Source: an archaeon
GTDB lineage: Archaea > B1Sed10-29 > WALL01
Direction: 5' to 3'
DNA length: 64,000 nucleotides
Assembly (NCBI GenBank): GCA_042584585.1
Contig: JBHOSQ010000006.1
Coordinates: forward strand, 266-64,265
Shown here: in pieces, positions 21,402 through 35,354 of the stretch
How the letters are laid out: each line of letters begins with the position of its first letter
Position numbering within the stretch: the first letter of the stretch is position 1
Position numbers and translations under genes: made by a program
The notes under the pieces: model-generated
The model's database searches: none
What the model was told of the DNA's origin: nothing
The model's input: only the letters and a program-made list of their open reading frames with translations

Positions 21402-21404
21402 AAT

Positions 21405-22640: not shown

Positions 22641-22657
22641 ACCGCGTAAAACCGTTG

Positions 22658-23806
22658 ATGCCTACCTGGAGCCACTCCCGCATTTCGACGTACGAGTCCT
22701 GTCCCCTTAAATTCTTTTATTCTTACGTCGAGAAGCCGGATGTTGAGGAGGTATTGGGGGACAATATCGCTCTTGTGCTGGGCAAGAGCTGTCACGAGGC
22801 GCTTGAGTGGCTGTACAAAGAGCTGTCCATGGGCGGGGAGCCCACTCTGGACGACGCTATCGACTATTATACCCAATCCTGGGGCAAGATGTGGACCCCT
22901 GACGTCATTATCCCCAACCACGACGAAAAGACGTGGAAAAGCCTTGGGGTGCGGTACCTTGGCGACTTTTACAACAGGCATTCGCCGTTCATCGAGGACC
23001 GGACGGTTGCCCTCGAGAGAATGATTCGCCTTAAGCTCGGCAAATACAGCTTAATCGGCTATATTGACCGTATTGCCGAGGCTGGTCCCGGCCATTACAA
23101 GGTCATTGACTACAAAACGAATAAGTGGCTGGCGCCCCAGGAAAAGTTTGATTCCGACAGGCAGTTGGCGCTGTACGAGTTGGGGGTTCGTCAAATGTTT
23201 CTTGACGCCAAGAAAGTTGATTTGGTGTGGGAAATGCTTCACTTCAACAAGACCATTGTTTCGCATCGTTCTCCGGCGCAGCTCGCGGAACTGAAGCGCG
23301 ACACCATTGCTATTATACAAGAAATCGAGGAATGCGAAGACTACCCGGCCAAAACCAGTAAGTTGTGTGACTGGTGTTCGTTCCAGGAGATTTGTCCGAA
23401 GAAGAAGCACGAGCGCGCGACCACGCGCATGACGGTACGCGAGTTCCGCAAGGACGAGGGTGTGAAGGTCGCGAACAAGTTTGTGCAGACAAAGCTGAAG
23501 CTGGACGAGTGGGGGTTGAAGACCAACGAGGCGCGGAAGGACGTGTTGGCTTACAGCGAACAGCAGGATACTGCGAGAGTCATTGGGTCGAAGGCGGCTG
23601 TGTCGGTAAGCACGATGAAGAGGGTCTCATTCGACCCGAAGGTTGAGAAGCTGCTGAAGAAAGAGGGGTTGTGGGAGAGGTTTAGTAGGTTGGATAGTGG
23701 GGCTTTGGTTAAGGCGCTGGATGAGTTGGAGCCAAAGCTGAAGAAGAAGCTGGAGAAGCTTGAGGAGAGTAAAGAATCTTTGTCTGTGAGGGTTGTTAAG
23801 AAATAG
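22658..23806 (+). CDS. Cas4/RecB-like PD-(D/E)XK nuclease with predicted 4-Cys (Fe-S) cluster
   Basis: N-terminus MPTWSHSRISTYESCPLKFFY (first Cys). GYIDRI...YKVIDYKT is the D...(D/E)xK motif. QLALYELG is the QxxxY motif. C-terminal CDWCSFQEIC is CxxCx5C. The ATG is 29 nt after the promoter motif. No cas genes are nearby. Confidence 0.85.
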   Translation: MPTWSHSRISTYESCPLKFFYSYVEKPDVEEVLGDNIALVLGKSCHEALEWLYKELSMGGEPTLDDAIDYYTQSWGKMWTPDVIIPNHDEKTWKSLGVRYLGDFYNRHSPFIEDRTVALERMIRLKLGKYSLIGYIDRIAEAGPGHYKVIDYKTNKWLAPQEKFDSDRQLALYELGVRQMFLDAKKVDLVWEMLHFNKTIVSHRSPAQLAELKRDTIAIIQEIEECEDYPAKTSKLCDWCSFQEICPKKKHERATTRMTVREFRKDEGVKVANKFVQTKLKLDEWGLKTNEARKDVLAYSEQQDTARVIGSKAAVSVSTMKRVSFDPKVEKLLKKEGLWERFSRLDSGALVKALDELEPKLKKKLEKLEESKESLSVRVVKK

Positions 23807-26678
23807 TTTCTTCCACAATCCGCCGTTCTTTGGCACTTAAACCGTAGATATCATAAACGAGTTTATCAATCTTTGCATCAATAACAACGATTTCTTTTTC
23901 TAGTTTAGCACGCGCGTCCGTTTGTTTATCTCCAAATTCAGCACATTTGGAAGTTAAGCGCATCAGGACTTTTGCAAGTTTAATAATACTAGTTTTATTT
24001 TTCTCACTTGCGTTCGCTATAGGTAACCGCTCTAAGTACTGTTTATTACAAGAATAGAACCCCCCCCTGAAGGGCGTGCTTATCTTAGTTAAATAAAATG
24101 TTAATAACTTACTATTTAGTATGGCAGTAACATACTCGTAATCGTCATTGTTATCAAGTATAACTCCATTAACATCCACATTATCAAGGCAAAATTCCCC
24201 CTCAGAATCATAAACAGCATTAATACGGTGTGCTAACCGCGGGATGCAAATCTTCGGTAAGTGTTGTTTTGCTAGATTTTTAGGATAAACATATGCATAC
24301 CACTTTGATCCTTTCATCTTACCCTTTTCGCGATTTTCAAGCATTGATTTATTCTTGATTAGGTATTTTGCTAATTTGGGGTATGTTTTCTGCAATCTAT
24401 CAAATGGTAACAATACAGCTCGCCCCTCGGAAAGCACATATGGAAAAACCACGTGCTGTCTTGTTTTTAGTTCTTGGTAACGTTTAACATCAACACCGCT
24501 TAAAACTGGCTTTAGTAAAGGCGATTCAAGAGCAACCTCTTCTTTCAAAGAAACACTAACTAGTTTAGTGGATTCTACTCCGGAAAGTATCAGTGCCTTG
24601 TCTGCACTAGTTTGTACACCCACAAAAATTGATTGGGCTATATCGCCGAGTTTTGGGGATTTTTTTAACTTGTTAATTATTGGAAGCTCACTACTTGAAG
24701 CTAAAATCCAGGGGTCATCTTCTGTTGGGCGCGGAATCACAGATTTACTCAGATTTGTTTCGTTTAGACTCTGATCATTTTTTGTTTGTGTTGTCTTCAA
24801 CTCAGTATATTCAATTGGTTGTTTCGTTCCTTTTTTTAAGAAGAGTAAACAAGTGTATGTTGTGGCCCCTGAGAAAACTTGGAATTGTTTGAAATCAACT
24901 ATTTTGTGGAGCGCTTTCTTTGTGTGTATCACTTTGCGCAAGCCTTTACCATACTCTGCCGTAAAGAACTTAGAGGGTAAAATGTAACCCAACACCCCGC
25001 CTTCCCGCAGAAGACTCAATCCTTTCTCAACAAAAAGGCAATACATGTCATAGTTTCTTGTCGCGGCTTCATAATTAGAACTAAAATAGTTAACATCCTT
25101 CTTATTCATAGTTTGTAAGCGGATATACGGAGGGTTCCCAATTATTACGTCAAACCCACCCTCCTTCATCACATTCTCAAAGTTATCATTCCAGTCGAAA
25201 GTCTTGTCACCCGCCACTCCAGAGTCATCAATAAGGGAATTACCACACTTGATGCTGCCCTCCAAAGAGGGCAAAAGATGCCGTTTCTCAGTCATCTTCA
25301 GTAAAAGATTCAGCTGAGCTATTTCTACTGCTTTTTCATCAAGGTCAACACCGTGGATGTTATTTTTCAATATCTCAATCTTCTTTGTGATACGAGCACC
25401 ATCATCTCCGAGTTTCGACTGTGCATACTGCTTATCGTTCTTCATGTAATACTCATCAAGCACGTCAAAGGCTTTTATCAGAAATGAACCTGAGCCACAT
25501 GCAGGATCAAGTACGCGGATTTTATCCACATCCGCAGGCTTCTTTTTCTTTATTAGTTCGCCCAAAGTGTTCTTCACTATGTAGTCCACAATGTAAGTTG
25601 GTGTGTAGTAAATGCCTTGCTCCTTACGGTGTGATTTGCCCCCCGAAAGCTTAGCGCGTTTAGCCGTCGTCCGCAGGACAGAACCTAAATACTGCTCATA
25701 AACATTCCCAAGTACGTCTGCATCAATCAGCGCGAAGTCATATCGGACATTTCCATCCTTTGAGTAATACAAGGCATCTATGACACCATCAAGAACCGTA
25801 TCTGTTACTTTAACCTTGTCCGCTTCGTGCTCTTTTTCAGCGGTGCGACCGAACAGCTTACTGTCGTAGTTTTCACGATAATAACCAAAAATCTCCTTGA
25901 GTTCACGCGAGAGACTCCCACCCTTTTCGCGATAAGCATTCATGGATTCTTTGAGTTTGTTGCCCTCAATCTTTCTGTCCTCACAAGCACGAATAAAGAT
26001 CAAACGATCGATGATACGTTGAACTATCTCATCGATTTCTTCTTGCGAGTACTTGTCGGGGTGTGCCTTTTTTATGTCTTTTGACAAGGCTGCGCGCCAG
26101 ACTAATAGTTCTTTCAGCAATAGTTCGGAAACGCTCTTGCGTGGCGTCCTCTTGCCAACTGTAATTGCGTAGTCAACCATGGCATTTTTGTCGAACGCTT
26201 CCTTGCTAAGTAACCAGAGCTTGTCGAATTCGTTAAGAAATTGAGTGTAGCGGAGCTCAAACACTTGGTTACGCCAGATGTTTTGCTCATTCCACTCACA
26301 ATTAAAGACCTTGAGTCCCTCAAAATCAGTAAGCACGGCCCAGGTCACTCCTTTGTTGAAACCATAGGATATAGCCTGTTTCGCGAACTCGCTGTTATCT
26401 AAGTTTGCTTTTGCCCCTTTAGCTTCAACGAAAAATCTTATGACGCCATCTAAGCGGAAGGCATAATCCGCACGACCCCGAAGCACGCGCTGCTCTTTAA
26501 TAACCTCATCATCTGTGCGCTCGTTGCGCATATCCCAACCGAGCGCTTCGAATAAGGGTTCAATGAACTCATTTTTAGTGCGTTCCTCGGAATAACCACG
26601 TAACTTGTCCTCGTCAACAATACGCTGGAACTTAGTGATTAACCCTTCAATTCGTTGTTTAGCATTTCCTTTATCCAC
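23796..26678 (-). CDS. Type IIG restriction-modification enzyme (Eco57I/MmeI-like: N-terminal PD-(D/E)XK nuclease fused to gamma-class N6-adenine methyltransferase and target-recognition region)
   Basis: 960 aa. N-terminus RADYAF...FFVEAKG is D...ExK. GIYYTPTYIVDYIV, then VLDPACGSGSFLI (motif I) and FDVIIGNPPYIR (NPPY motif IV). GTG start. AT-rich codon usage unlike the flanks. Confidence 0.85.
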   Translation of the reverse strand: MDKGNAKQRIEGLITKFQRIVDEDKLRGYSEERTKNEFIEPLFEALGWDMRNERTDDEVIKEQRVLRGRADYAFRLDGVIRFFVEAKGAKANLDNSEFAKQAISYGFNKGVTWAVLTDFEGLKVFNCEWNEQNIWRNQVFELRYTQFLNEFDKLWLLSKEAFDKNAMVDYAITVGKRTPRKSVSELLLKELLVWRAALSKDIKKAHPDKYSQEEIDEIVQRIIDRLIFIRACEDRKIEGNKLKESMNAYREKGGSLSRELKEIFGYYRENYDSKLFGRTAEKEHEADKVKVTDTVLDGVIDALYYSKDGNVRYDFALIDADVLGNVYEQYLGSVLRTTAKRAKLSGGKSHRKEQGIYYTPTYIVDYIVKNTLGELIKKKKPADVDKIRVLDPACGSGSFLIKAFDVLDEYYMKNDKQYAQSKLGDDGARITKKIEILKNNIHGVDLDEKAVEIAQLNLLLKMTEKRHLLPSLEGSIKCGNSLIDDSGVAGDKTFDWNDNFENVMKEGGFDVIIGNPPYIRLQTMNKKDVNYFSSNYEAATRNYDMYCLFVEKGLSLLREGGVLGYILPSKFFTAEYGKGLRKVIHTKKALHKIVDFKQFQVFSGATTYTCLLFLKKGTKQPIEYTELKTTQTKNDQSLNETNLSKSVIPRPTEDDPWILASSSELPIINKLKKSPKLGDIAQSIFVGVQTSADKALILSGVESTKLVSVSLKEEVALESPLLKPVLSGVDVKRYQELKTRQHVVFPYVLSEGRAVLLPFDRLQKTYPKLAKYLIKNKSMLENREKGKMKGSKWYAYVYPKNLAKQHLPKICIPRLAHRINAVYDSEGEFCLDNVDVNGVILDNNDDYEYVTAILNSKLLTFYLTKISTPFRGGFYSCNKQYLERLPIANASEKNKTSIIKLAKVLMRLTSKCAEFGDKQTDARAKLEKEIVVIDAKIDKLVYDIYGLSAKERRIVEETIS

Positions 26679-26700
26679 GGACTAGGCTATTGATTTGACG

Positions 26701-26717
26701 AATTTATGCCTACCGGT
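26701..26717 (-). promoter_or_regulatory. island-specific promoter motif (type IIG gene)
   Basis: The reverse complement is accggtaggcataaatt, with the TATA about 28 nt upstream of the GTG start at 26678. Confidence 0.5.
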
Positions 26718-26775
26718 AGCGAGATAGGATCTGATGAACCGAAAAGATCAAAAATGGGGCCTTCGTTAGGCCCCT

Positions 26776-27927
26776 ATGGCGAAGAGTATCTGGGAAACCG
26801 CAGTTGAGGTCCTTAAAAAACACGGTCAACCAATGCATTACACTGAACTATCCAAAAATGTCTTTAAGAGCCATGATACAAAAGGCAAAACCCCTTGGCA
26901 AACACTAAACGCTCAGATGAATCGAAAAAATATGGTTTTCCAGAGATTCGGACCAGGGATATACGGCCTTGTTGAATGGAAGGGACGCAATATCCCTGCG
27001 GGCGAAAAGTACAGGGGATTGTGGCCACTACCAGGAGGAACCAAACAGTACGTAGATACATTATTTTCAGCATTGCGTTATGTAAAAAGAAACAAACCAA
27101 AAATGAAGGAGTTTGTAAAGTGGTTTCTGAAGGAATATGGCAAATTGAAAAGCCCGGGGGTGGCAAGATCTTATATTTACTTGATTAAAAAGCTGGGTTT
27201 CATCAAGAAAGAAGGAAAAATTTACATTCTGACGGACCTCGGAAAAACTGCAGTGAAGACCCGGTCTTACTCTTTTGTTTTTGATGTGTTAGATGCTAGC
27301 TTTTTGGGTGTTAGAGATCTGCTTCAAAGGGTTAAAGGAAAATCGTCCTCTTTAGAAGAGTTAAACAAATTTCTCAAAAATAAATATGGCACGGGTTGGA
27401 AGGGAACCGCACAAGCATTATGGAGAACACGTTGGTTGATAAGTCTAGGCGCACTTGAGAAAAAAGGGGGTAACTATTTTATCACAAAAACCGGGGAAAA
27501 ACTCCTTTCCAGACCACTATTAACAGTTGCAGTAAAAAAAGAAAAAGTAAAGGTTCAAAAAACGCCTCAAGCAAGGATTCGCCGCATAGTCGGGAAAAGA
27601 ACTAGTTTAGCTGGAATGAGTTACGAGCCAGTAAACGAGAAAGGCGTTATATTCCTTTTTGGATACTACCTCAAGAAACTAGGTTTTTCTCATGTCGAAG
27701 CAGTACAAGCAGGATTCCCTGATGCTACGGCAATACGGCCGATAGGCAAAAATAAACTAGAGGAAGTAAGGATAGAGTTTGAGTTCAAAAGCAGTAACTT
27801 CAAACAACACAAGCATATTGTCCAACAATGCGACCTCATAGTATGCTGGCAACATGATTGGAAAGATTGTCCCTTGGACGTTATAGAGTTAAAGAGCAAA
27901 TTGGAAGAGCTTGAAAAGGGTACGTAA
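26776..27927 (+). CDS. HARE-HTH domain protein with C-terminal PD-(D/E)XK-like nuclease fold
   Basis: N-terminus SIWETAVEVLKKHGQPMHYTEL...TPWQTLNAQM...FQRFGPGIYGL is the HARE-HTH signature. C-terminus GFPDATA...VRIEFEFKS...CDLIVCWQHDW fits PD...ExK. It is divergent from the type IIG gene. Confidence 0.6.
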   Translation: MAKSIWETAVEVLKKHGQPMHYTELSKNVFKSHDTKGKTPWQTLNAQMNRKNMVFQRFGPGIYGLVEWKGRNIPAGEKYRGLWPLPGGTKQYVDTLFSALRYVKRNKPKMKEFVKWFLKEYGKLKSPGVARSYIYLIKKLGFIKKEGKIYILTDLGKTAVKTRSYSFVFDVLDASFLGVRDLLQRVKGKSSSLEELNKFLKNKYGTGWKGTAQALWRTRWLISLGALEKKGGNYFITKTGEKLLSRPLLTVAVKKEKVKVQKTPQARIRRIVGKRTSLAGMSYEPVNEKGVIFLFGYYLKKLGFSHVEAVQAGFPDATAIRPIGKNKLEEVRIEFEFKSSNFKQHKHIVQQCDLIVCWQHDWKDCPLDVIELKSKLEELEKGT

Positions 27928-27931
27928 GTAG

Positions 27932-28150
27932 TCAACAAACCCTCGCCATCCTATACCCTCCTTCTTCCGCTTCCTCGGCGCCTCTAAACCAAACCCTGTT
28001 CTCCACCTTTATACGATTAGCGTACATGCAGCCTGGCCGGTGGTAGACGTCCGAGTTCTTACTGCCCACGAACGGGCCTCCGTAGGTCAAGTCGTCCCAT
28101 TGGAGGGCGAGGACGAGAATTAAGAGGATGAGGATTAAACGGTAGTCCAT
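27932..28150 (-). CDS. small membrane-anchored protein with Ada-like metal-binding motif
   Basis: 72 aa with an N-terminal TM (LILILLILVLAL). VYHRPGCMYANRI...FRGAEEAEEGGYRMARVC resembles the YHxxxC...GYRxC motif. Confidence 0.4.
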   Translation of the reverse strand: MDYRLILILLILVLALQWDDLTYGGPFVGSKNSDVYHRPGCMYANRIKVENRVWFRGAEEAEEGGYRMARVC

Positions 28151-28188
28151 AAACTAAGTGAGCAAAAATTCGTTTAAATAGGCTTCGC

Positions 28189-28536
28189 CTATGTAACTTG
28201 CCGAGAATGTCTCTCTTTTTCCCTTGCTTTAGCCTTCTGGCGATATTCCTTCAGATAGGCCTTCCTTTTCGTTGTCTGGTCTCGTTTCCGTAACCGTTTC
28301 TTCACTTCGGGACGCCGATTATACTCATAAGCATACTCGCGCTTCCGTTCTTTAGCTTCAGGACGCTGCTGATACTCACGTATGTACTTTCGCCTACGCT
28401 CCTTGACGTCTGGACGCTGGAAATACGCCTTAGCATACTCTGCCCTACGCGTCTTGGGTTCATCCTTTTTGTAGTACTCCCGCATATACTCTCGTAAGTA
28501 CTCACGTCGCTTTTGTTCAGGTGTTGATGTAGGCAT
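28189..28536 (-). CDS. highly basic tandem-repeat protein
   Basis: 115 aa with about three repeats of a ~17-aa unit (QRPDVKERRRKYIREY / QRPEAKERKREYAYEY / RRPEVKKRLRKR). Function unknown. Confidence 0.5.
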   Translation of the reverse strand: MPTSTPEQKRREYLREYMREYYKKDEPKTRRAEYAKAYFQRPDVKERRRKYIREYQQRPEAKERKREYAYEYNRRPEVKKRLRKRDQTTKRKAYLKEYRQKAKAREKERHSRQVT

Positions 28537-28597
28537 TGATTGCTTCTTTGGAACACACGATTGATAAAGCTTTGGCTAATAACCCTTCATCGCCTTC

Positions 28598-29716: not shown

Positions 29717-29737
29717 AACTGCCTTAGTGGGTGGCTT

Positions 29738-29754
29738 AATTTATGCCTATCGGT
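29738..29754 (-). promoter_or_regulatory. island-specific promoter motif (HNH gene)
   Basis: The reverse complement is accgataggcataaatt, with the TATA about 25 nt upstream of ATG 29716. It matches 26701-26717 at 16 of 17 positions. Confidence 0.5.
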
Positions 29755-29900
29755 CCATCAACCATAGGCCACGTCTATATCCTCCGTCCCTTTAGCAATC
29801 CATCGCTCAAGCATCAAACCGAGCTTCTAGGCATACTAATATATTAAAAATGGGTGTACCACTATAATCTTTATTCCATGAAGTCCCATAGTGATAATCC

Positions 29901-32042
29901 ATGAAAAAACCCGTGAAAACCATCAAGTTTACGGTTGACGCCAAACTCCTTGAAGAACTTGGTGAACGTTTGGTAGGAAAACCGTACGTAGCCCTAGCCG
30001 AATTGATCAAAAACAGTTATGACGCAGATGCCACGAAGGTAACAATAAAACTTGATGATCAAAACGATTCAATAACTATAGAGGATAACGGACACGGCAT
30101 GAATAAGACTGAATTCACGAACTTTTGGATGCGCATAGGATCAAGGCATAAGGAAAGACAGAAATTTTCAACGGGATTTAAGAGGCCAATCACGGGATCT
30201 AAGGGAGTCGGGAGACTGGCGGTACAACTCTTAGCAAATAACCTACTACTTGAGACCGTGTCCAAAAAGGATAAGACTAAAAAGATAATCTCACGTGTTG
30301 ATTGGAAAAAAGCGATTAACCAAGGTGAGCTGACCAACGCCGAAGCGGAGTATGAGACTAAAAAATCAAAAGAAGGCTTCAAGCCTGGGACAAAGATTAC
30401 TCTCAATGGATTAAAACAGAAGTGGGATGACGAAAAGATAGGTGGTTTGGCTACGCAGATATGGGTTTTACAGCCCCCCTTTGGTGGAAAGTCGCTTGGA
30501 AAGAAAGAACAAAGAATTGCTTTTGATATAGATCTTGAATCTCCTAACAAAGAATTGGAGAAAGAATTTAAGGATAAAATTAACGCGATTAGAGGGATAT
30601 GGCACGCAAGGATAGTTGGCGAAAACAAAAAAGGCCGCGTTAAAATCCACTTTGAGTTCCGAGGGGGAGAACCAAAAACGTGGGAATTTAGAATACCCCA
30701 CGCTGCCCTTGAGGGTGGAAACTTCGACATACGAGTGTATAAATTACAAGGAAAACAGCCAGAAGGGATACTGGTGGATGACGCCCGTGACTATTTAAGA
30801 ACCCACGGGGGAGTCCATGTGTATGACACTGGCTTCCATCTCCCACAGTATGGGAGCGGCCCTGAAGAAGATTGGTTGGGTCTAGAAATGCAACACGCAC
30901 ATCGATTGAGTAAGTCTCAGCTGTTGCCAGACAATATGCAAAAGGACTTTGAACACCCACTGAATAACATTCCTACCCTAACCCGTGTTTTGGGTGTTGT
31001 AAATGTGAACACATCAAAAGAAACAGATTTAGACATACTTGTAACCAGAGATAGACTAAAAGACACCCAAGCGTTTCAGGATCTAAAACTGATCTGCCAG
31101 ACTGCCATGCATTTCTATGCAGTGGAAGAAACGAGAAGGAAAAATCGGGTGAGGGCAAGATGGGGCGAGATAAAGAAAAAAGATGAGGAATTTAAGAGAG
31201 TGGAGGAAGTTCTTGAAAAGCACAAGTCGCAGATTCCTAAAAAAGTGTATGAAGAAGTCCACGAGAACATTGAACGGGTTATGGACAAGATTGGAACAGA
31301 ATCGAAGGCAGTAACGAAGAGACTGTCTTTAATGGGTGCTCTCGCCACGGCTGGCATTTCGTCTCTAGCAGTGCAACACGAATTGAAGAGACAGTTTAAA
31401 GGTATTAGGGACATAACTGTCCAGATAGACCAACTCAACATAAAAGATAAAGAAGAGAGAGCAAGATTACAGAACTTGAAAAGGAAGTTAACGGATTGGC
31501 TCCATCGAGCTGAAGCAGTAAATAATCTCTTTGCTTATGTGACTGATGAAAGTAACAGGGGCAAAGCGAGTAGATCCCGCGCCCTAAGTGTTGTAAAAGA
31601 GCTCGTGGGACAATTAGGGCCAGTTATGGAGGGGGCAACTATTCATACAGATAGATTGGATAAGGATATACTCCTCCCCAAAGCAACAATGGCGGAATGG
31701 GGCTCAATATTCCAAAATGTGTTCTTGAACGCATTTAATGCCATGCTTAGTTCTAAGAAAAAGATTATCGATGTGAGTTCAAGAAGGGAGGGTAAATCGC
31801 GCGAGATTGTAATACAGGACACCGGTTGTGGTCTTGAACTCAAGAATTCGGAGAAACTATTCGAACTTTTCGAACGGGGGGCGGAGTTATCCTCCGCACG
31901 ACGGGATCTGGGATATGGTGGGGGCGGAATGGGACTCACGATAGTGAGGTTCATTGCGAGGAATATAGGCTGTAAAGTCGCATTCGTAGAACCAGAGGAT
32001 GGATTCAAAACTGCATTTAGCATAAAATGGGAGGAGATATGA
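29901..32042 (+). CDS. dual GHKL protein: N-terminal MORC/Hsp90-like ATPase (HATPase_c_3-type) fused to a C-terminal histidine-kinase core (HisKA-like H-box plus HATPase_c)
   Basis: N-terminus: LAELIKNSYDADA (Bergerat motif I), IEDNGHGM (motif II), GSKGVGRLA (motif III). C-terminus: SLAVQHELKRQF (H-box-like), IFQNVFLNAFNAM (N box), IQDTGCGL (G1), LFELFERG (F), GGGGMGLTIV (G2). Confidence 0.8.
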   Translation: MKKPVKTIKFTVDAKLLEELGERLVGKPYVALAELIKNSYDADATKVTIKLDDQNDSITIEDNGHGMNKTEFTNFWMRIGSRHKERQKFSTGFKRPITGSKGVGRLAVQLLANNLLLETVSKKDKTKKIISRVDWKKAINQGELTNAEAEYETKKSKEGFKPGTKITLNGLKQKWDDEKIGGLATQIWVLQPPFGGKSLGKKEQRIAFDIDLESPNKELEKEFKDKINAIRGIWHARIVGENKKGRVKIHFEFRGGEPKTWEFRIPHAALEGGNFDIRVYKLQGKQPEGILVDDARDYLRTHGGVHVYDTGFHLPQYGSGPEEDWLGLEMQHAHRLSKSQLLPDNMQKDFEHPLNNIPTLTRVLGVVNVNTSKETDLDILVTRDRLKDTQAFQDLKLICQTAMHFYAVEETRRKNRVRARWGEIKKKDEEFKRVEEVLEKHKSQIPKKVYEEVHENIERVMDKIGTESKAVTKRLSLMGALATAGISSLAVQHELKRQFKGIRDITVQIDQLNIKDKEERARLQNLKRKLTDWLHRAEAVNNLFAYVTDESNRGKASRSRALSVVKELVGQLGPVMEGATIHTDRLDKDILLPKATMAEWGSIFQNVFLNAFNAMLSSKKKIIDVSSRREGKSREIVIQDTGCGLELKNSEKLFELFERGAELSSARRDLGYGGGGMGLTIVRFIARNIGCKVAFVEPEDGFKTAFSIKWEEI

Positions 32043-32043
32043 C

Positions 32044-33252
32044 ATGGGCAAGGGCAAGATATTTGTGTATGATGATGAACCAGAAAGCGCAACACAATAC
32101 AAAAATAAATTAGAACACCTTGGGATTGTTTCAAAGAAGTTCAAAGTCGAACGTATAACAAAAGAAGAGTTTGAAAATCCGAAAAAAGGGATTGGAATAT
32201 TGCGAGATAGACGAGAAAAGTTAAGATCCAAAAAGATAAGGTTAGAGGGCTCTATATTCGACGAAGAAAATGCCATATTTCTTATAGATTACGATCTTGT
32301 TGGGGGTGCTGAACAACTCGGTATCCGGACTGGCGAAGATGTAGCATACTTTCTACGCTGTTTTTCGAAGTGTGGTTTGATAATCGGGGTGAGCACATTA
32401 TGGGATAATGTTTTCGACCTCTCACTCAAAAGCGAATCAGAGCATTATTTAGACTTGCGGATTGGTGGAGCTCAAGTGGATAATGCGAGGTTATGGGGTG
32501 AAGGAGAAGAGGAGTTCAGGCCATGGTCCTGGCCTGACTTAAACCGCTTATCCGAGACCTTTGAAAAGAGAGTACGAGATGTGAAAAGTAACTTTGACAA
32601 AGAGATATACGACACACTCGGTTTCTCAACTAGCATAGCTAAATACCTCCCCCCGTCCGTAAGTGAGTTTTTGGGTGGTGAACCACTTAAAGTGACATTC
32701 AGAGACTTCCTCACAGGATCTGAGAAAGGCTTAGATGGCAAAGACCGGGATTACGTCGATAACCTCCCAAAAAATCAACAAGCCAGGTTAACTGCGGCAC
32801 GGTTGTCCAGATGGCTTGAAACGGTTGTCTTGCCCGATCAGGATATTCTTGTGGATGCCCCCCACCTCGTCTCCAGGCTACCAACTCTCTTGAAAAAGAC
32901 CAACCCAACTGTAGAGGATCTAAATAAGACAGCTAGTTTTGGAGACGCGGAAAAACTTGGGCTGAAACATGAAGATATAGAAGAGTTCAGATTCAAGAAG
33001 GACTATTGGTTATCCAGATCAGCGTGGTTTTGGAGTGAACTCTCTGAGAATATAGACTGGTTAAAACAAAAAGGGGGAAAAAGAGTGTTGCTCAATGATA
33101 ACGTATTCTGTGAAGATACATCTAGATTTCACAAAAGAGAGCGATGTAAGGAATTCGAGGCAGATATATCCTCCCCGTATAGACGGCGTTACGTGAAAAA
33201 ACTGGGCGGCGATTTTAGGTATGAGAACCCCGGCAGACTCTCCAGCATTTGA
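32044..33252 (+). CDS. receiver(REC)-like N-terminal domain protein with uncharacterised ~270-aa C-terminal domain
   Basis: The start is 1 nt after the upstream stop, with GGGAGGAG SD-like sequence upstream. KIFVYDDEPE (acidic pocket-like) and AIFLIDYDLVGG (candidate phospho-acceptor Asp) suggest a divergent REC fold. The spacing is longer than canonical. Confidence 0.5.
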   Translation: MGKGKIFVYDDEPESATQYKNKLEHLGIVSKKFKVERITKEEFENPKKGIGILRDRREKLRSKKIRLEGSIFDEENAIFLIDYDLVGGAEQLGIRTGEDVAYFLRCFSKCGLIIGVSTLWDNVFDLSLKSESEHYLDLRIGGAQVDNARLWGEGEEEFRPWSWPDLNRLSETFEKRVRDVKSNFDKEIYDTLGFSTSIAKYLPPSVSEFLGGEPLKVTFRDFLTGSEKGLDGKDRDYVDNLPKNQQARLTAARLSRWLETVVLPDQDILVDAPHLVSRLPTLLKKTNPTVEDLNKTASFGDAEKLGLKHEDIEEFRFKKDYWLSRSAWFWSELSENIDWLKQKGGKRVLLNDNVFCEDTSRFHKRERCKEFEADISSPYRRRYVKKLGGDFRYENPGRLSSI

Positions 33253-33295
33253 ATTGGCGTTATTCCAATAAAAAAATACGGAGTAGGAATTGAAA

Positions 33296-33976
33296 ATGAG
33301 TTATGGATCTTCACCCGATCAGATTTTTTCCACAATGTTAGGAATGTTCAAAGGACTACTCGATCACTCAGCTAGTATGTATAACACCGACCGAGGAGAG
33401 CGGATCCCAGATAGCGCGAAAGAGTCGTATAACGGACTAGCACGAAAACTTGAACCCATAACAACGAAAGAGCTTGAGGTGGTGTTTAAAGATAAGGATT
33501 TCTCTCTTTTGGAAACAAAGCCATTGTATCTGCCTTATGCTGATGACGACCAAAAAGTCATACCAATAATCCAAGGTATAGAGTTTGATTTCGCTAGGGA
33601 AACCGATAATATCAAAATCAAATTAGCACTTTGTGATTATTCCAAACCAGAAGAGTATGGTTGCAGGTGTGTTTGTTTCCGACTTGAAGGACCCCACCCC
33701 TCAAACAGTAAACATAACTATTATCATTTGCAAGTCACCGCAGTAGAGGGCGCATTAAAGGAATTTGTGCGGGACACACAAACTGAAGATCTGCAAGAGC
33801 CTATTGATTGGATCCCCGAACATGCGCCACGTATCCCCCTAATGGCAGAGTGCCCTGTAACTCTCCTCATAGCTCTTTTACTCAGTTTGTACGGGAGCAA
33901 ACGAATAGTGAAATATGTTGATCTTAATCGGTTGGATGGGAAATGGCCAGGACTGTTTAACGACATAATGTCCTGA
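33296..33976 (+). CDS. hypothetical protein, third gene of the GHKL operon
   Basis: About 226 aa, same strand, 40-nt gap with GGAG upstream. A hydrophobic segment VTLLIALLLSLYG lies near the C-terminus. No domain recognised. Confidence 0.55.
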   Translation: MSYGSSPDQIFSTMLGMFKGLLDHSASMYNTDRGERIPDSAKESYNGLARKLEPITTKELEVVFKDKDFSLLETKPLYLPYADDDQKVIPIIQGIEFDFARETDNIKIKLALCDYSKPEEYGCRCVCFRLEGPHPSNSKHNYYHLQVTAVEGALKEFVRDTQTEDLQEPIDWIPEHAPRIPLMAECPVTLLIALLLSLYGSKRIVKYVDLNRLDGKWPGLFNDIMS

Positions 33977-34010
33977 GGGGCAGCTTTTTTACTTCGTGAA
34001 TGCCAAGGTA

Positions 34011-35072
34011 TTATGCACATCGCTTCAAATGCTCTTGTATGGAGCGCCCTATTGCCTCTGCCAATTTAACAGGAACTGCATTGCCAATTAGCCGTCCTAA
34101 CTCACCCTTACATACCCGTGCACCATCTGGAACAAATCTATAGTTTGCTGGAAAGGTTTGTAGCAAAGCCGCTTCCCTGAAAGAGATGGCCCTGTCTTGT
34201 TCGGGATGTCCAAAACGACCAGTTCCGTAGATGTATGATTGTGTTGTGATTGTGGGGGACGGTTTGTCCCATTCCATCCGACCATACACCGGCGTATAAC
34301 TTTTACCGGAAGGTTTTTTGTGGCATTCTAGCCTGAGGCGTGGTGGCCAGTCCATCCAAGTGCCACCTGGTTTAGAAGCTCTTATCCTTTCCAGGTTTTT
34401 GCTGCTCAAGCGTGAAGCTTCGTGTATAAAATCGTTAGCATCTTGCTCACCTGCATGTAGAGGTGAGAGAGCGCCTATCGCTCCTCTGACTGTGGAGTAT
34501 TCTGTTTCATCAGCACAAATCGGCGGGATCATATTTATCTTACCAAGCCGTGAAGCTAAAAGCACTAACCTACGCCGACTTTGTGGCACCCCATAACCCC
34601 GGCAATCTCGTATCGCCCAATCTGTTTGATATTCCAACTTGTCAAGTGCCGACAAAAAATCCTGGAACACTTCGTGCCTACACAGCCCGGGCACATTCTC
34701 CATCGTAACTATATCAGGAGTGATATTGCGAATGCACCGAGTGAAGGAGTTCAACAGCCTCCACTTATCATTTTTCTTGTCGCTATCATCTTTCTTGTCG
34801 CGCTTATGCCCTAACTGGGAGAACGGTTGACAAGGCGCACACCCCGCCAGTATCCGCACGCCATTTTTGGGATAAAGAGCTTCAATGTCTCGACTGGTCA
34901 TTCTTTTGATATCCCCTTCAATAAAGACTGCGTCCGTGTTCTCCTCGTAGGGGAAACGGCACGCGGGATCGTTGTCTATGCCCGCCACGACCTTAATGCC
35001 TTCTCGCTCCAAACCATAGGTTAACCCCCCAGCACCGCAAAATAGGTCAATGGCGTAGGCATCTGAGGGCAT
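34011..35072 (-). CDS. dcm: DNA (cytosine-5)-methyltransferase
   Basis: All hallmark motifs are present: DLFCGAGGLTYG (I), GCAPCQPFS (IV, PCQ), TMENVPGL (VI, ENV), QSRRRLVLLAS (VIII), GNAVPVKLAEAIG (X). TATA ttataaata lies 25 nt upstream. Confidence 0.92.
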   Translation of the reverse strand: MPSDAYAIDLFCGAGGLTYGLEREGIKVVAGIDNDPACRFPYEENTDAVFIEGDIKRMTSRDIEALYPKNGVRILAGCAPCQPFSQLGHKRDKKDDSDKKNDKWRLLNSFTRCIRNITPDIVTMENVPGLCRHEVFQDFLSALDKLEYQTDWAIRDCRGYGVPQSRRRLVLLASRLGKINMIPPICADETEYSTVRGAIGALSPLHAGEQDANDFIHEASRLSSKNLERIRASKPGGTWMDWPPRLRLECHKKPSGKSYTPVYGRMEWDKPSPTITTQSYIYGTGRFGHPEQDRAISFREAALLQTFPANYRFVPDGARVCKGELGRLIGNAVPVKLAEAIGRSIQEHLKRCA

Positions 35073-35164
35073 CGCGTAAGATACAGCGGAGGGGTATTTA
35101 TAACCTTTATAGGGCCTTACCTGACTTCCACTAGAGCTACAGCTAACCTTTTAAACCAAAAAAA

Positions 35165-35188
35165 TAGTTGGCAGTGCATAGTCGTTGT
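35165..35188 (+). repeat. second copy of the 23S 3'-trailer processing-stem half
   Basis: agttggcagtgcatagtcgttgta, located 140 nt outside the functional copy and at the right edge of the AT-rich island. Confidence 0.8.
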
Positions 35189-35328
35189 ATATGCCGGATT
35201 AACCGCCAATGCTGGCCTTCCAACAAATAACTATGAACTCAACCAGTAGGAGTGGCACGTACATATGTGCCATTATATATCCTTTAGTTAAATGAATCCG
35301 CATAAGCTCAAACTCAAATAATTGGGGT

Positions 35329-35354
35329 AGTTGGCGTGTGCATAGTCGTTGTGA
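35329..35354 (-). other. 23S rRNA 3' processing-stem half
   Basis: Its reverse complement ..CACAACGACUAUGCACACGCCAACU pairs with 5' flank GUGCAUAGUCGUUGU (38429-38443). A further GUAGGUU/AACCUAC pairing lies next to the mature ends. Confidence 0.75.

What the first reader, a model, noticed from the sequence alone, without database searches (positions are those of the whole stretch)
23796..35200. An ~11.4 kb AT-richer defence island inserted between the nuclease gene and the 23S rRNA trailer
From the convergent 11-nt overlap of the nuclease gene stop with the type IIG gene stop (23796-23806) to about 35160, the sequence is visibly more AT-rich. The host promoter motif AAAGCCTTTTATCCCTCC and the H elements are absent here, and operon-internal SD-like GGAG/GGTGA sequences appear. 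Content: a type IIG R-M enzyme, a HARE-HTH/PD-(D/E)XK protein, an Ada-like small protein, a basic repeat protein, an HNH nuclease, the GHKL-HK operon and a Dcm methyltransferase. The type IIG and HNH genes share a 17-nt promoter block (accgGtaggcataaatt / accgAtaggcataaatt), which argues they arrived together or are co-regulated. This looks like a horizontally acquired immunity island.
Basis: partly seen in the sequence, partly recalled or inferred. Interest (0 to 1): 0.6.

Follow-up and report, generated by a model that had tools for sequence, protein, structure and literature searches.

The report
Composite defence island beside archaeal rRNA
A tiny (DPANN-type) archaeon carries about 11 kb of foreign, AT-rich DNA full of restriction-type immunity genes between a conserved nuclease gene and its ribosomal RNA operon; its closest relative holds different immunity genes at the same spot, so this is an ordinary but well-documented defence-gene hot spot, not a new kind of system.

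Summary
Window 23.8-35.1 kb is the most atypical stretch of this 1.02-Mb genome: 42.9% GC against 55.2%, tetranucleotide distance 5.5-7.7 SD above the mean, and gene GC3 3.1-4.5 SD below it. The gene calls are largely right: a type IIG R-M enzyme, a HARE-HTH protein, an HNH protein, a GHKL/histidine-kinase operon and Dcm. The 17-nt promoter block is real and unique to the two sites.

Three corrections:
1. It is not one block. The small "Ada-like" gene (27932-28150) has host composition and is syntenic in the congener G002, so low-GC DNA sits on both sides of a resident gene.
2. Dcm belongs to the GHKL operon. Dcm, GHKL-HK, a REC-like protein and a small protein form a four-gene module in 25 bacterial and archaeal loci. 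The HNH gene does not belong to it.
3. The "host promoter motif" is also absent from the host-like right flank, so its absence proves little.

G002 has the same frame (nuclease, low-GC DNA, Ada-like gene, low-GC DNA, 23S) with different cargo: an MmeI-type IIG enzyme, a UDG-like protein and an OLD nuclease. It also has stubs of gene 3' ends. No recombinase, tRNA gene or stub marks the insertions in this window, so the insertion mechanism is unresolved. Verdict: a new member of a known kind, of moderate interest.

The parts
22655..23806 (+). Left anchor, not part of the island: a Cas4-like PD-(D/E)XK nuclease gene with host composition
   Evidence: PDDEXK_1 3.9e-30 and Cas4 PADLOC hits. GC3 0.71. 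The orthologue in congener G002 is 81% identical at the protein level.
23796..26678 (-). Type IIG restriction-modification enzyme: an N-terminal HSDR_N-type nuclease, an Eco57I/N6_Mtase gamma-class adenine methylase and a TaqI_C-type target-recognition domain. Its stop overlaps the nuclease stop by 11 nt.
   Evidence: PADLOC REase_MTase_IIG 7e-184 over residues 1-954. Pfam Eco57I 6e-49, N6_Mtase, TaqI_C and HSDR_N. The motifs VLDPACGSGSFL, NPPY and D..EAK are visible in the translation. GC3 0.415, z -3.9. The closest relatives are DPANN archaea at 59-62% identity.
26701..26717 (-). 17-nt promoter block ACCGGTAGGCATAAATT, ending 22 nt upstream of the IIG start codon, in a 97-nt divergent intergenic region
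26776..27927 (+). HARE-HTH protein: a winged-helix middle region plus a conserved 115-aa C-terminal domain, which is a probable nuclease of unverified fold
   Evidence: HARE-HTH 1.9e-10 and HTH_45 9.4e-6. The C-terminal domain has 1290 cluster representatives at E<=1e-10 and no full-length orthologue. Relatives of the middle region carry Mrr_cat in its place. There is no PDB match. GC3 0.397.
27932..28150 (-). Resident small gene of host composition. It encodes a TM-anchored Ada_Zn_binding/'sunset'-like protein of 72 aa and splits the low-GC DNA into two blocks.
   Evidence: GC3 0.69, z -0.6. The syntenic orthologue in G002 (61971-62177) is 72-79% identical at the protein level and 75% at the nucleotide level, and there too it is flanked by low-GC genes. 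Pfam 24.2 bits. NCBIfam sunset 26.5 bits against a cut-off of 27.
28189..28536 (-). Basic protein of 115 aa with Arg/Lys/Glu/Tyr-rich repeats; function unknown; island-like codon usage
   Evidence: No family hit. GC3 0.478, codon z -3.7.
28598..29716 (-). Stand-alone HNH-type nuclease candidate with an unassigned N-terminal region of about 280 aa
   Evidence: HNH_5 weak (E 0.0034) and PtuB weak. A His..N..CxxC motif is visible. The family is rare: 57 other hits, about 35 of them near full length, at 36-42% identity. Its homologues are solitary in varied contexts, including a Peribacillus restriction cluster. No homologue lies in any of the 25 module loci.
29738..29754 (-). Second copy of the 17-nt promoter block (ACCGATAGGCATAAATT), ending 21 nt upstream of the HNH start, in the 184-nt divergent region shared with the GHKL operon
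29901..32042 (+). MORC-like GHKL ATPase (HATPase_c_3) fused to a histidine-kinase core (QHE H-box at H493 plus HATPase_c)
   Evidence: Pfam 2.2e-29 and 3.8e-20. The Bergerat, H-box, N, G1, F and G2 motifs are invariant in 18 homologues. 2729 homologues at E<=0.001; the 119 best are full-length at 46-55% identity. It is unique to G000 within its class.
32044..33252 (+). Receiver-like protein (DD..D acidic pocket) with a C-terminal domain of about 270 aa of unknown fold; translationally coupled (GGAGG upstream)
   Evidence: AF2 model pLDDT 83. The N-terminus matches receiver domains AdeR and DesR at probability 0.96-0.99, while the rest has no match. D10, D11 and D82 are invariant. There is no PF19192 hit.
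33290..33976 (+). Conserved third operon protein (228 aa); fold has no solved analogue
   Evidence: 15-sequence alignment with invariant R131, E133, H142 and H146. AF2 pLDDT 80, pTM 0.81. There is no Foldseek PDB hit below E 0.3.
34011..35072 (-). C5 cytosine DNA methyltransferase (Dcm). It is the modification arm of the GHKL module, here inverted at the operon's 3' end.
   Evidence: DNA_methylase 2.8e-58. It is 46-54% identical (63% on one fragment) to the Dcm directly upstream of GHKL in 12 of the 25 module loci; five further loci have a Dcm at about 30% identity. GC3 0.47, z -3.1.
35159..35192 (+). Displaced copy (A) of the 23S 3'-trailer processing-stem half. Together with its conserved upstream flank from about 35127, it marks the right limit of island-specific DNA.
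   Evidence: It is complementary to the 23S leader at 38428-38443.
35323..35356 (+). Trailer copy (B) next to the 23S 3' end (35391)
21371..21404 (+). Third trailer copy, directly followed by an H element. It is most likely the end of a neighbouring H cassette, not an island border.
   Evidence: G002 has three such trailer-stump+H junctions stacked before its 23S.

Best explanation
Window ~23.8-35.1 kb is a composite, horizontally acquired restriction/defence island. It sits in a lineage-specific variable hot spot bounded by a conserved Cas4-like nuclease gene and the 3' trailer of the rRNA operon.

STRUCTURE (shown). The island is at least two low-GC blocks separated by a resident small gene of host composition.
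- Block L (23.8-27.9 kb) holds a single-chain type IIG R-M enzyme and a divergently transcribed HARE-HTH protein.
- Block R (28.2-35.1 kb) holds a basic repeat protein, a solitary HNH nuclease candidate and a four-gene module: Dcm, a MORC-like GHKL ATPase fused to a histidine kinase, a receiver-like protein and a small protein.

HOW IT WORKS (inferred from family knowledge).
- The IIG enzyme methylates adenine in its own recognition site and cuts unmethylated incoming DNA.
- Dcm marks host DNA with 5-methylcytosine. The GHKL-HK protein, a soluble DNA-clamp-type ATPase with an intact kinase core, reports on DNA status by phosphorylating the receiver protein, whose unknown output domain, together with the small protein, carries out the response.
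- The HNH and HARE-HTH proteins act as further nucleases, possibly modification-dependent.

HOW IT GOT THERE (inferred).
- Cargo is gained and replaced repeatedly at this spot, drawn from a pool shared with other DPANN archaea (the IIG enzyme) and with distant bacteria and archaea (the Dcm-GHKL module).
- In the congener, such insertions regenerate the 3' ends of the flanking genes and leave stubs.
- In this genome no stub or recombinase is left, so exchange by recombination in the conserved flanks, or later trimming, is the most likely route.
For: FOREIGN COMPOSITION. The stretch has the lowest GC and the largest tetranucleotide distance in the genome. Every large gene lies 3.1-4.5 SD below the genome's GC3 and codon-usage mean, whereas the nuclease, orf373 and the right flank are host-like.

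TWO BLOCKS. The Ada-like gene has GC3 0.69. Its G002 orthologue has GC3 0.63, sits between genes of GC3 0.35-0.39, and has diverged as much as the nuclease has.

HOT SPOT. In G002 the same frame (nuclease 49136-50284 ... Ada-like 61971-62177 ... trailer 73049-73098 ... 23S) spans 22.9 kb, mostly of 37-45% GC (the first ~3 kb after the nuclease is host-like, 50-56%). Its cargo differs: an MmeI-type IIG enzyme only 28-46% identical, a UDG-like protein and an OLD-family AAA_15+TOPRIM nuclease. It also holds two stubs of the nuclease 3' end and one of the Ada-like 3' end.

PATCHY DISTRIBUTION. A GHKL homologue occurs in 0 of the 30 other species genomes of the class.

MODULE UNITY.
- Eighteen of 25 loci from Anaerolineae, Poribacteria, Bacteroidota, Bathyarchaeota, Hodarchaeota and others hold GHKL, p402 and p228 homologues in the same order, 12 of them with a Dcm hit directly upstream; most of the other 7 loci also keep a Dcm hit upstream.
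- A distant version lies on a mobilizable Mycolicibacterium plasmid.

INTACT CATALYTIC MOTIFS. These are present in the IIG enzyme, Dcm, HNH and GHKL-HK proteins. The receiver fold of p402 is supported by the model and fold search.

PRECEDENTS.
- Two-component-like HATPase_c_3/H-box/HATPase_c proteins with receiver partners next to C5 methylases were predicted in 2021 (PMC8011034).
- Ambrosia, an MTase + HK-ATPase + REC + HNH system, has been shown to defend against phage (bioRxiv 10.1101/2025.09.30.679545).
Against: - No insertion signature lies at the compositional edges in this window. There is no tRNA gene and there are no stubs of the nuclease or Ada-like 3' ends. No tyrosine recombinase is found in the island or anywhere in the 84%-complete assembly.
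- Only one informative relative (G002) exists. The other congener lacks the locus, and more distant relatives are not syntenic.
- The IIG family is present in the same archaeal family with host-like composition (G005, 61-62% identity). An older residence with an unusual compositional history is therefore not strictly excluded for that gene.
- No function was tested. No recognisable nuclease exists in the Dcm-GHKL module, so calling it 'defence' rests on linkage and on analogy.
- The Ada-like gene is found in only 3 of 31 class genomes. 'Resident' therefore means resident in this genus.
Confidence: 0.78

Rival explanations
1. One large integrated element. On this reading the 13.8 kb between the exact 24-nt direct repeats AGTTGGCAGTGCATAGTCGTTGTA (21378-21401 and 35166-35189) is a single mobile element that integrated into the 23S trailer. 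It would have brought in orf373, the nuclease gene and all the low-GC genes together.
For: The repeat is exact over 24 nt (31 of 34 with flanks) and occurs only at these two sites plus a diverged copy next to the 23S. Target-duplicating insertion into the trailer clearly happens in this genus: G002 has three trailer-stump+H junctions.
Against: The repeats do not coincide with the compositional boundary. The 2.4 kb inside the left repeat (orf373 and the nuclease) has host composition. In G002 the nuclease occupies the same position relative to the 23S with no trailer copy found in the 19 kb held upstream of it. In G002 the trailer stumps always sit directly before H elements of small cassettes, as at 21371-21428 here. 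The left copy is therefore better read as the end of a neighbouring cassette. The island also contains a gene of host composition and has heterogeneous codon usage.
Confidence: 0.08
2. An old, vertically inherited region. On this reading the low-GC genes have long been resident in this lineage and keep an atypical composition for functional or mutational reasons. G002 would differ through loss and divergence, not independent gain.
For: IIG homologues at 61-62% identity exist in a genus of the same family. Both congeners have an IIG gene directly after a nuclease 3' end, or a stub of one.
Against: The IIG genes of G000 and G002 belong to different subtypes, lie in opposite orientation and are only 28-46% identical, while the flanking nuclease is 81% identical. 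The G005 copies are largely ameliorated to host GC3 (0.64-0.75), whereas this one has GC3 0.41. The remaining cargo has no counterpart anywhere in the class. Its nearest relatives are at most 55% identical and lie in unrelated phyla.
Confidence: 0.07
3. An assembly or binning artefact. On this reading the low-GC stretch, or the whole rRNA-bearing contig, comes from another organism and was joined by mis-assembly.
For: Contig C6 as a whole is the lowest-GC contig of the bin (50.3% against 52-58%). Contigs that carry rRNA are often mis-binned.
Against: The right 16 kb of the contig is indistinguishable from the genome in tetranucleotides and codon usage. An independently assembled congener has the same order (nuclease, low-GC DNA, Ada-like gene, low-GC DNA, 23S) on one contig. 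The left junction lies inside two overlapping intact ORFs.
Confidence: 0.03
4. Selfish or regulatory modules, not host defence. On this reading the R-M genes persist as addiction elements, and the GHKL-HK/receiver pair is an ordinary signalling system that merely travels with a methylase.
For: R-M systems are known to behave as selfish elements (established knowledge). The Dcm-GHKL module has no recognisable nuclease. The authors of the 2021 paper proposed a regulatory role (PMC8011034).
Against: Five or six independent restriction-type genes are clustered at a site where the congener also carries defence genes (OLD nuclease, IIG enzyme). That is the pattern of defence islands. A system of related architecture has been shown to protect against phage. 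Selfish persistence and defence are also not mutually exclusive.
Confidence: 0.12

Closest known systems
Defence islands at chromosomal hot spots flanked by conserved genes (the general concept of defence islands and variable integration hot spots in bacteria and archaea)
   Same: Several unrelated restriction-type systems are clustered together. Their composition is atypical and their distribution patchy. A close relative carries different cargo at the same flanked position.
   Different: The host is a ~1-Mb DPANN-type archaeon. The anchors are a solo Cas4-like nuclease gene and the 23S rRNA trailer. No integrase, transposase or tRNA gene is present. A resident small gene splits the island.
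Type IIG restriction-modification enzymes (Eco57I/MmeI-like single-chain REase-MTase-TRD)
   Same: There is a full-length match to a PADLOC IIG model (7e-184). The nuclease, gamma-class N6-adenine MTase and TaqI_C target-recognition domains are all present, and the catalytic motifs are intact.
   Different: Specificity and activity are untested. The closest relatives are only 59-62% identical and all come from DPANN archaea.
HEF_HK / Response_reg_2 two-component-like pairs linked to C5 methylases and paraMORC ATPases (Bellieny-Rabelo, Pretorius & Moleleki 2021, PMC8011034)
   Same: The architecture is the same: HATPase_c_3 + H-box (His-Glu) + HATPase_c. The protein is soluble, the adjacent partner is receiver-like with a conserved DD..D pocket, and the pair is tightly linked to a C5 methylase, often with Vsr.
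   Different: Neither Pfam model (PF19191, PF19192) scores on these proteins or on homologues from three other loci, even at E<=10 (the pre-computed domain lists also lack them). This is therefore a sister clade outside the published profiles. It has a conserved third gene of unknown fold, and it is found here in archaea, whereas the paper treated bacteria only.
Ambrosia defence system (AbrR-AbrA-AbrB-AbrC-AbrD; van den Berg et al., bioRxiv 10.1101/2025.09.30.679545)
   Same: It combines a DNA methylase, a histidine-kinase/HSP90-like ATPase and a receiver protein, with an HNH nuclease next to them. It is the only experimentally validated system of this general design.
   Different: Ambrosia uses an N6-adenine methylase, an XRE regulator and a REC-wHTH transcription factor, with the HNH gene inside the operon. 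Here the methylase is C5 and there is no XRE gene. The receiver's output domain has no detected wHTH. The HNH gene is divergent, and its family is absent from all 25 related module loci. Sequence homology to the Abr proteins was not tested.
BbrUII/HgiDII family restriction enzymes and MORC/paraMORC ATPases in R-M operons (Iyer, Abhiman & Aravind 2008, PMC2292703)
   Same: The N-terminal GHKL domain matches NCBIfam restrict_BbrUII at 6.9e-30 over residues 9-182 and PADLOC REase_II models at 1e-12.
   Different: The score is 104 bits against a curated cut-off of 550, and only the ATPase domain matches. The remainder of the protein is a histidine-kinase core, not a nuclease.

Membership tests
Horizontally acquired genomic (defence) island | Compositional and codon-usage discontinuity against the host genome | tested here: met
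   GC z about -5.8. Tetranucleotide z 5.5-7.7. GC3 z -3.1 to -4.5 for 8 of the 9 genes.
Horizontally acquired genomic (defence) island | Absent or different in close relatives at the same flanked site | tested here: met
   G002 has the same anchors with different cargo. The GHKL protein has no homologue in the 30 other class genomes. Only one informative relative was available.
Horizontally acquired genomic (defence) island | Mobility signature: integrase or transposase, a tRNA gene, or direct repeats at the borders | tested here: not met
   There is no tRNA gene, no tyrosine recombinase in the island or the assembly, and no stubs. The 24-nt trailer repeats do not coincide with the compositional edges.
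Horizontally acquired genomic (defence) island | Clustering of several independent defence or restriction genes | tested here: met
   By profile matches and conserved linkage, the island holds an IIG R-M enzyme, a HARE-HTH protein, an HNH candidate and the Dcm-GHKL module. No function was assayed.
Type IIG R-M enzyme | Nuclease, N6-adenine MTase and target-recognition domains on one polypeptide, with catalytic motifs | tested here: met
   PADLOC PDLC03604 at 7e-184 over 1-954. Pfam HSDR_N, Eco57I, N6_Mtase and TaqI_C. NPPY, FxGxG and D..ExK motifs are present.
Type IIG R-M enzyme | Cleavage at a fixed distance from an asymmetric site, together with self-methylation | not testable with these tools
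   This needs biochemistry or methylome data.
HEF_HK / Response_reg_2 two-component-like system (PMC8011034) | A match to Pfam HEF_HK (PF19191) in the kinase and to Response_reg_2 (PF19192) in the partner | tested here: not met
   No hit at E<=10 in the window proteins or in homologues from L018 and L021.
HEF_HK / Response_reg_2 two-component-like system (PMC8011034) | Architecture HATPase_c_3 + His-Glu H-box + HATPase_c, an adjacent receiver-like gene, and linkage to a C5 methylase | tested here: met
   Q492-H493-E494 is invariant. D10, D11 and D82 are invariant in the partner.
Ambrosia (AbrR/A/B/C/D) | Five-gene set: XRE regulator, N6 MTase, HK-ATPase, REC-wHTH and type IV HNH in one cluster | tested here: not met
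   There is no XRE gene, the methylase is C5, and no wHTH was detected in the receiver protein. The HNH gene is divergent, and its family is absent from all 25 related module loci.
DISARM / Druantia (raised by PADLOC DrmMII and DruM hits of Dcm) | Core genes DrmA/B/C or DruE next to the methylase | tested here: not met
   No such hits among the island proteins. The Dcm hits reflect the generic C5-MTase fold.
BREX (raised by PglX hits of the IIG enzyme) | PglX at full score together with PglZ, BrxC and BrxL | tested here: not met
   NCBIfam BREX_1_MTaseX scores 131.6 bits against a cut-off of 500. No other BREX genes are present.
Septu (raised by weak PtuB hits of the HNH protein) | A PtuA ATPase adjacent to PtuB | tested here: not met
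   The PtuB hits have E about 6e-4 only, and there is no PtuA.
PD-(D/E)XK nuclease (C-terminal domain of the HARE-HTH protein) | Recognised fold or profile match with a conserved D...(D/E)xK | tested here: inconclusive
   There is no Pfam or PDB profile match. E18, D46, E64 and E66 are invariant, but the Lys position varies.

The most novel reading that the evidence does not exclude
The island may be one coordinated, recombinase-free immune hub and not a mere collection of systems. Two sub-claims make up this reading.

1. The 17-nt block shared only by the IIG and HNH promoters could be an operator read by the island's own regulator, either the receiver protein p402 or the HARE-HTH/winged-helix protein. 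The MORC-like kinase would then switch on two nucleases when it detects DNA lacking the Dcm mark. That would be an archaeal, C5-methylase-based counterpart of Ambrosia.

2. The hot spot could gain cargo by a target-restoring insertion process at gene 3' ends and at the rRNA trailer that needs no element-encoded recombinase.
Probability: 0.12. Interest if true: 0.7.

Novelty: new member of a known kind. Interest (0 to 1): 0.42.

Why it matters
Very small symbiotic archaea have little room for immunity genes. This locus shows that they nevertheless keep a dedicated, fast-turning slot for restriction-type systems, placed next to their only rRNA operon and a conserved Cas4-like nuclease gene. It offers a clean two-genome example of cargo replacement at a fixed site. 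It places the widespread but untested Dcm / MORC-like kinase / receiver module in DPANN archaea, outside the published Pfam profiles. It also supplies concrete handles for experiments: two methylases whose motifs can be read from long-read data, and a unique 17-nt promoter block. The island as such is an ordinary kind of object.

Tried and rejected
- More distant relatives as comparators: their 23S flanks have other base compositions, or are not syntenic, and carry no island genes. They give no ancestral empty site.
- Search for stubs of the nuclease or Ada-like 3' ends, or other repeats at the island edges, in this window: none found.
- tRNA genes and Rfam families at the borders: none. The 130 nt between the two trailer copies fold no better than shuffles.
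- Viral origin: PHROGs gives only generic methylase and ATPase hits. No IMG/VR contig encodes a close IIG relative or a relative of the receiver protein.
- Pfam at E<=10 for HEF_HK/Response_reg_2 in the operon proteins: no hit.
- PDB sequence searches for p402, p228, HNH, HARE and the HARE C-terminal profile: nothing significant.
- Foldseek on p228: no analogue.
- Single-donor test by RSCU correlation: weak and heterogeneous, so neither joint nor separate arrival is proven.
- Bacterial promoter/terminator scan: not above shuffles, and not applicable to an archaeon.
- Rejected: DISARM, Druantia, BREX and Septu labels suggested by partial PADLOC/NCBIfam hits, because the core genes are absent.

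Full report
CONTEXT

The window is contig C6 (positions 266-64265) of a 1.02-Mb, 32-contig assembly that is 84% complete. It carries archaeal 16S, tRNA-Ala and 23S genes on the minus strand; the 23S occupies 35391-38389. The closest database proteins are labelled Diapherotrites and Micrarchaeota, which are DPANN archaea. Earlier notes of this scan describe the 3.9-22.7 kb region as an array of small cassettes. Each cassette starts with a two-hairpin "H element", and the array is stacked in front of a Cas4-like nuclease gene. I treated those notes as leads and re-checked what I used.

Yes.

Composition:
- The stretch 23796-35200 has 42.9% GC against 55.2% for the genome. It is the lowest of 772 sliding windows of the same length (mean 55.2%, SD 2.1%).
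- Tetranucleotide distance from the rest of the genome is 0.43-0.52 for the 4-kb windows inside it. The 428 windows on other contigs have mean 0.188, SD 0.044 and maximum 0.417.
- Gene by gene, GC3 is 0.37-0.47 against 0.704 +/- 0.075 for 688 genes elsewhere. Synonymous-codon log-likelihood lies 3.7-5.0 SD below the mean.
- The nuclease gene (GC3 0.71), the gene before it (0.705) and the genes at 48-64 kb are host-like. The contig therefore belongs to this genome, and the discontinuity is internal to it.

Boundaries:
- A two-change-point fit on raw GC gives 23770 and 34040.
- The left edge is sharp.
- The right edge is soft, because Dcm has 49% GC. Its GC3 (0.47, z -3.1) and its linkage to the operon (section 2) place it in the island.
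- From about 35127 the sequence is again shared with the congener.

Motifs:
- The 17-nt block is confirmed at 26701-26717 and 29738-29754 on the minus strand. None of 100 shuffles gave two matches.
- It occurs nowhere else in the genome, nor upstream of related IIG genes in relatives. In both cases it ends 21-22 nt before the start codon, where an archaeal TATA/BRE for a leaderless transcript is expected.
- H elements are indeed absent from the island.
- The "host promoter motif" is absent too. But all 12 of its matches lie at or below 22640 and none lies in the host-like 35-64 kb. It marks the cassette array, not the host, and its absence is weak evidence.

2. WHAT IS IN THE ISLAND?

Type IIG enzyme (23796-26678, minus strand).
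- It matches a PADLOC type IIG model over its whole length (7e-184). It has HSDR_N, Eco57I/N6_Mtase and TaqI_C domains, and the FxGxG, NPPY and D..ExK motifs are visible.
- Its best relatives in a 5.8-billion-protein collection are all DPANN archaea: Diapherotrites at 62% and 61%, Micrarchaeota at 59%, then 50% or less.
- The two Diapherotrites proteins belong to G005, a genus of the same family. There the conserved N-terminal two-thirds has largely host-like composition (GC3 0.64-0.75) and is 74-75% identical at the nucleotide level to the gene here.
- This enzyme family therefore circulates among related small archaea. The copy in this window has not been ameliorated.

HARE-HTH protein (26776-27927, plus strand).
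- It has a HARE-HTH domain (1.9e-10) and a winged-helix middle region.
- Its last 115 residues form a very widespread domain: 1290 cluster representatives at E<=1e-10, about 50% identical, fused to many different N-termini including homing-endonuclease DNA-binding repeats.
- Proteins that share its middle region carry an Mrr_cat nuclease in the position of this domain.
- The domain has invariant E..PD..ExE..H..CW..W..CP residues, but the Lys of a canonical ExK is not conserved. It matches nothing in Pfam or the PDB.
- A nuclease role is a reasonable inference. The PD-(D/E)XK fold is unverified.

Ada-like gene (27932-28150, minus strand).
- It encodes 72 residues: an N-terminal hydrophobic helix followed by a short domain. 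That domain barely passes Pfam Ada_Zn_binding (24.2 bits against 23) and barely fails NCBIfam "sunset" (26.5 against 27). It has only two Cys.
- It is the one gene of the stretch with host composition (GC3 0.69, codon z -0.6).

Basic repeat protein (28189-28536, minus strand).
- It has no family match. Its codon usage is island-like.

HNH candidate (28598-29716, minus strand).
- It has a weak HNH_5 match and a visible His..Asn..CxxC motif.
- Its family is rare: 57 other hits, about 35 of them near full length, at 36-42% identity.
- It occurs as a solitary gene in varied contexts: beside transposases, in a Peribacillus cluster with BamHI and an SRA-type restriction gene, and near a Dcm.

GHKL protein (29901-32042, plus strand).
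- It combines an N-terminal MORC/MutL-type ATPase (HATPase_c_3, 2.2e-29) with a C-terminal histidine-kinase ATPase (HATPase_c, 3.8e-20).
- In 18 homologues the Bergerat motifs, a Gln-His-Glu H-box (H493) and the N, G1, F and G2 boxes are all invariant.

Receiver-like protein p402 (32044-33252).
- The AlphaFold model has pLDDT 83. Its first ~125 residues match response-regulator receiver domains (AdeR, DesR; probability 0.96-0.99). D10, D11 and D82 are invariant. The remaining ~270 residues match no solved structure.

Small protein p228 (33290-33976).
- It gives a confident model (pLDDT 80, pTM 0.81) with no structural analogue.

The four-gene module.
- The GHKL family is very large: 2729 homologues at E<=0.001, the 119 best full-length at 46-55% identity.
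- I examined 25 loci from Anaerolineae, Poribacteria, Bacteroidota, Bathyarchaeota, Hodarchaeota, Thermomicrobiales and metagenomes. The order is Dcm, GHKL, p402-like, p228-like.
- A Dcm lies directly upstream in 17 loci. In 12 of them it is 46-54% identical (63% on one fragment) to the Dcm of this window.
- A distant version sits on a mobilizable Mycolicibacterium plasmid, with dcm divergent.
- Dcm (34011-35072) is therefore the modification arm of this module and is simply inverted here. No HNH homologue occurs in any of these loci, so the HNH gene is not a conserved member.

3. ONE ISLAND OR SEVERAL? THE COMPARISON WITH RELATIVES

Only one relative is informative. G002, of the same genus, has the nuclease (81% protein identity, 77.6% nucleotide identity) at C7:49136-50284 and the 23S 3' end at about 73145 on the same contig. 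The 22.9 kb between them is mostly 37-45% GC (the first ~3 kb after the nuclease is host-like, 50-56%). Its content is different:
- an MmeI-type IIG enzyme in the opposite orientation, only 28-46% identical;
- a UDG-like protein;
- an OLD-family AAA_15+TOPRIM nuclease;
- several unknown genes.

The single shared gene is the Ada-like one, at G002 61971-62177.
- It is 72-79% identical at the protein level and 75% at the nucleotide level over 207 nt, the same divergence as the nuclease. Its flanks cannot be aligned.
- In G002 it is again a host-like islet (GC3 0.63) between genes of GC3 0.35-0.39.
- The simplest reading is that the nuclease, the Ada-like gene and the rRNA operon were already neighbours in the common ancestor. 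Low-GC cargo was then gained or replaced independently in both intervals in both lineages.

Further points:
- Within the class (31 species genomes) the GHKL protein has no homologue outside this genome.
- A family-level relative with similar GC (G005) has host-like DNA for 8 kb beyond its 23S and no synteny.
- Codon usage of the island genes is anticorrelated with host genes. Among the island genes it is only weakly correlated (r = 0.10-0.57), highest within the Dcm/p402/p228 module and between the IIG enzyme and HNH. This does not point to a single donor.

4. HOW DID IT GET THERE?

This question is not settled.

What G002 shows:
- G002 carries two stubs of the nuclease 3' end (52438-52486 and 54870-54975) and a probable stub of the Ada-like 3' end (59958-60041) just beyond the OLD gene.
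- Insertions there regenerated the 3' end of the target gene and pushed the old end outward.
- G002 also has three "trailer stump + H element" junctions stacked before its 23S.

What this window shows:
- There are no such stubs, no tRNA gene and no tyrosine recombinase. None was found in the whole assembly, whereas G002 and G005 have one each.
- Block L fills the space between the two convergent stop codons almost to the base.
- Either the cargo was exchanged by recombination within the conserved flanks, or the stubs were trimmed. I cannot tell which.

The direct repeat:
- The exact 24-nt repeat at 21378-21401 and 35166-35189 is the 23S trailer half of the processing stem. It is complementary to the leader at 38428-38443.
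- It brackets 13.8 kb, but it does not match the compositional edges. In G002 such stumps always sit directly in front of H elements of small cassettes, exactly as at 21371-21428 here.
- I therefore read the left copy as the end of a neighbouring cassette. Copy A (35159-35192) would be a trailer displaced by a small 164-nt insertion. Neither is an island border. I hold this reading with moderate confidence.

5. HOW DOES IT MOST LIKELY WORK?

Everything in this section is inferred from family knowledge; nothing was assayed.
- The IIG enzyme should methylate adenine in an asymmetric site and cleave unmodified DNA nearby.
- The Dcm/GHKL-HK/receiver/p228 module has the logic of a restriction-modification system whose "restriction" arm is a phosphorelay. 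A soluble MORC-like ATPase with an intact kinase core passes a signal to a receiver protein with an unknown output.
- No nuclease domain is recognisable in that module.
- The general architecture was predicted from comparative genomics in 2021 as HEF_HK/Response_reg_2 pairs linked to C5 methylases, Vsr and paraMORC ATPases (PMC8011034). The Pfam models from that work do not score on these proteins, so this is a sister clade.
- The only tested system of similar design is Ambrosia. It combines an XRE regulator, an N6 methylase, an HK-ATPase, a REC-wHTH protein and a type IV HNH. All five genes are needed for phage defence, and the relay induces expression on infection (bioRxiv 10.1101/2025.09.30.679545).
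- Here an HNH gene sits divergently next to the kinase operon. Its promoter shares a unique 17-nt block with the IIG promoter. That invites the hypothesis that one island-encoded regulator controls both nucleases. I could not test it, and the absence of HNH from related module loci counts against an obligatory partnership.

6. COMPARISON AND NOVELTY

As an object, this is a defence island at a hot spot, which is a known kind. Partial hits to DISARM, Druantia, BREX and Septu components reflect shared methylase or HNH folds, and the core genes of those systems are absent.

The new points are modest:
- the host (a DPANN-type archaeon) and the anchors (a solo Cas4-like nuclease gene and the rRNA trailer);
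- a resident gene splitting the island;
- a two-genome record of cargo replacement;
- an archaeal copy of an untested methylase-kinase-receiver module that falls outside the published profiles.

LIMITS

- There is one informative relative.
- There was no structure prediction for the HNH N-terminal region or the HARE C-terminal domain.
- There are no functional data of any kind.

Noticed in passing
window 46194-48263: A second small low-GC patch. It holds two co-oriented minus-strand genes with GC3 0.45-0.46 (z about -3.2): an unknown protein of 282 aa and an SBF-family sodium/bile-acid-type transporter (4.7e-41). An inverted H element lies directly beside them at 48240-48263. It looks like an H cassette outside the main array.
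   Followed up: partly
window 35193-35322: About 130 nt of unique sequence lie between two copies of the 23S trailer stem half (35159-35192 and 35323-35356). The congener has a single trailer copy here. There is no Rfam match and no unusual fold. It may be the remnant of a small insertion into the rRNA trailer.
   Followed up: partly
L014 (G002:C7) 2438-2486, 4870-4975 and 9958-10041: The congener carries two stubs of the nuclease 3' end and one probable stub of the Ada-like 3' end, each just beyond inserted genes. Insertions there regenerate the 3' end of the target gene. Some of the inserted genes have host-like composition (GC3 0.70-0.73).
   Followed up: partly
L014 17236-17344 and 18542-18648; L015 1945-2060: In G002, three 'trailer stump + H element' junctions are stacked before the 23S. 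The 23S trailer is thus a second stacking site for H cassettes besides the 5' end of the nuclease gene.
   Followed up: partly
L033 7708-10617 and L034 7860-10658 (G005): Two paralogous IIG genes occur in a genus of the same family. In the L033 copy the conserved N-terminal part has about 56% GC and the C-terminal, target-recognition part only 41-45%, which suggests swapping of the specificity domain. The L034 copy is uniformly host-like, but a tyrosine recombinase gene with a zinc ribbon lies about 0.6 kb from it.
   Followed up: no
window 26756-26774: A perfect 7-bp GC-rich hairpin (GGGGCCTAACGAAGGCCCC on the minus strand) ends one base before the HARE-HTH start codon, in the divergent IIG/HARE intergenic region. 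It could be an operator or a translational control element.
   Followed up: no
window 1-23700: The whole left part of the contig is mildly atypical (tetranucleotide z 1.4-3.9; many genes with GC3 0.51-0.60). The promoter motif AAAGCCTTTTATCCCTCC is confined to it: all 12 matches lie at or below 22640. The motif is a property of the cassette array, not of the host genome at large.
   Followed up: partly
G000 whole assembly: No Phage_integrase-family recombinase is detectable in this 84%-complete assembly, while G002 and G005 have one each. Even the usual XerA-type gene is missing or unassembled.
   Followed up: no
G004:C5:29947-31630: In a family-level relative, the 3' part of the 23S matches in pieces separated by about 1 kb. 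This suggests an intervening sequence in its 23S gene.
   Followed up: no
L021 13193-13435 / L037 10064-10306 (Bathyarchaeota contig): A homologue of the HARE protein's C-terminal domain (37% identity over residues 278-362) lies about 2.3 kb downstream of another copy of the Dcm-GHKL module. This may be coincidence within a defence island or a loose association.
   Followed up: no
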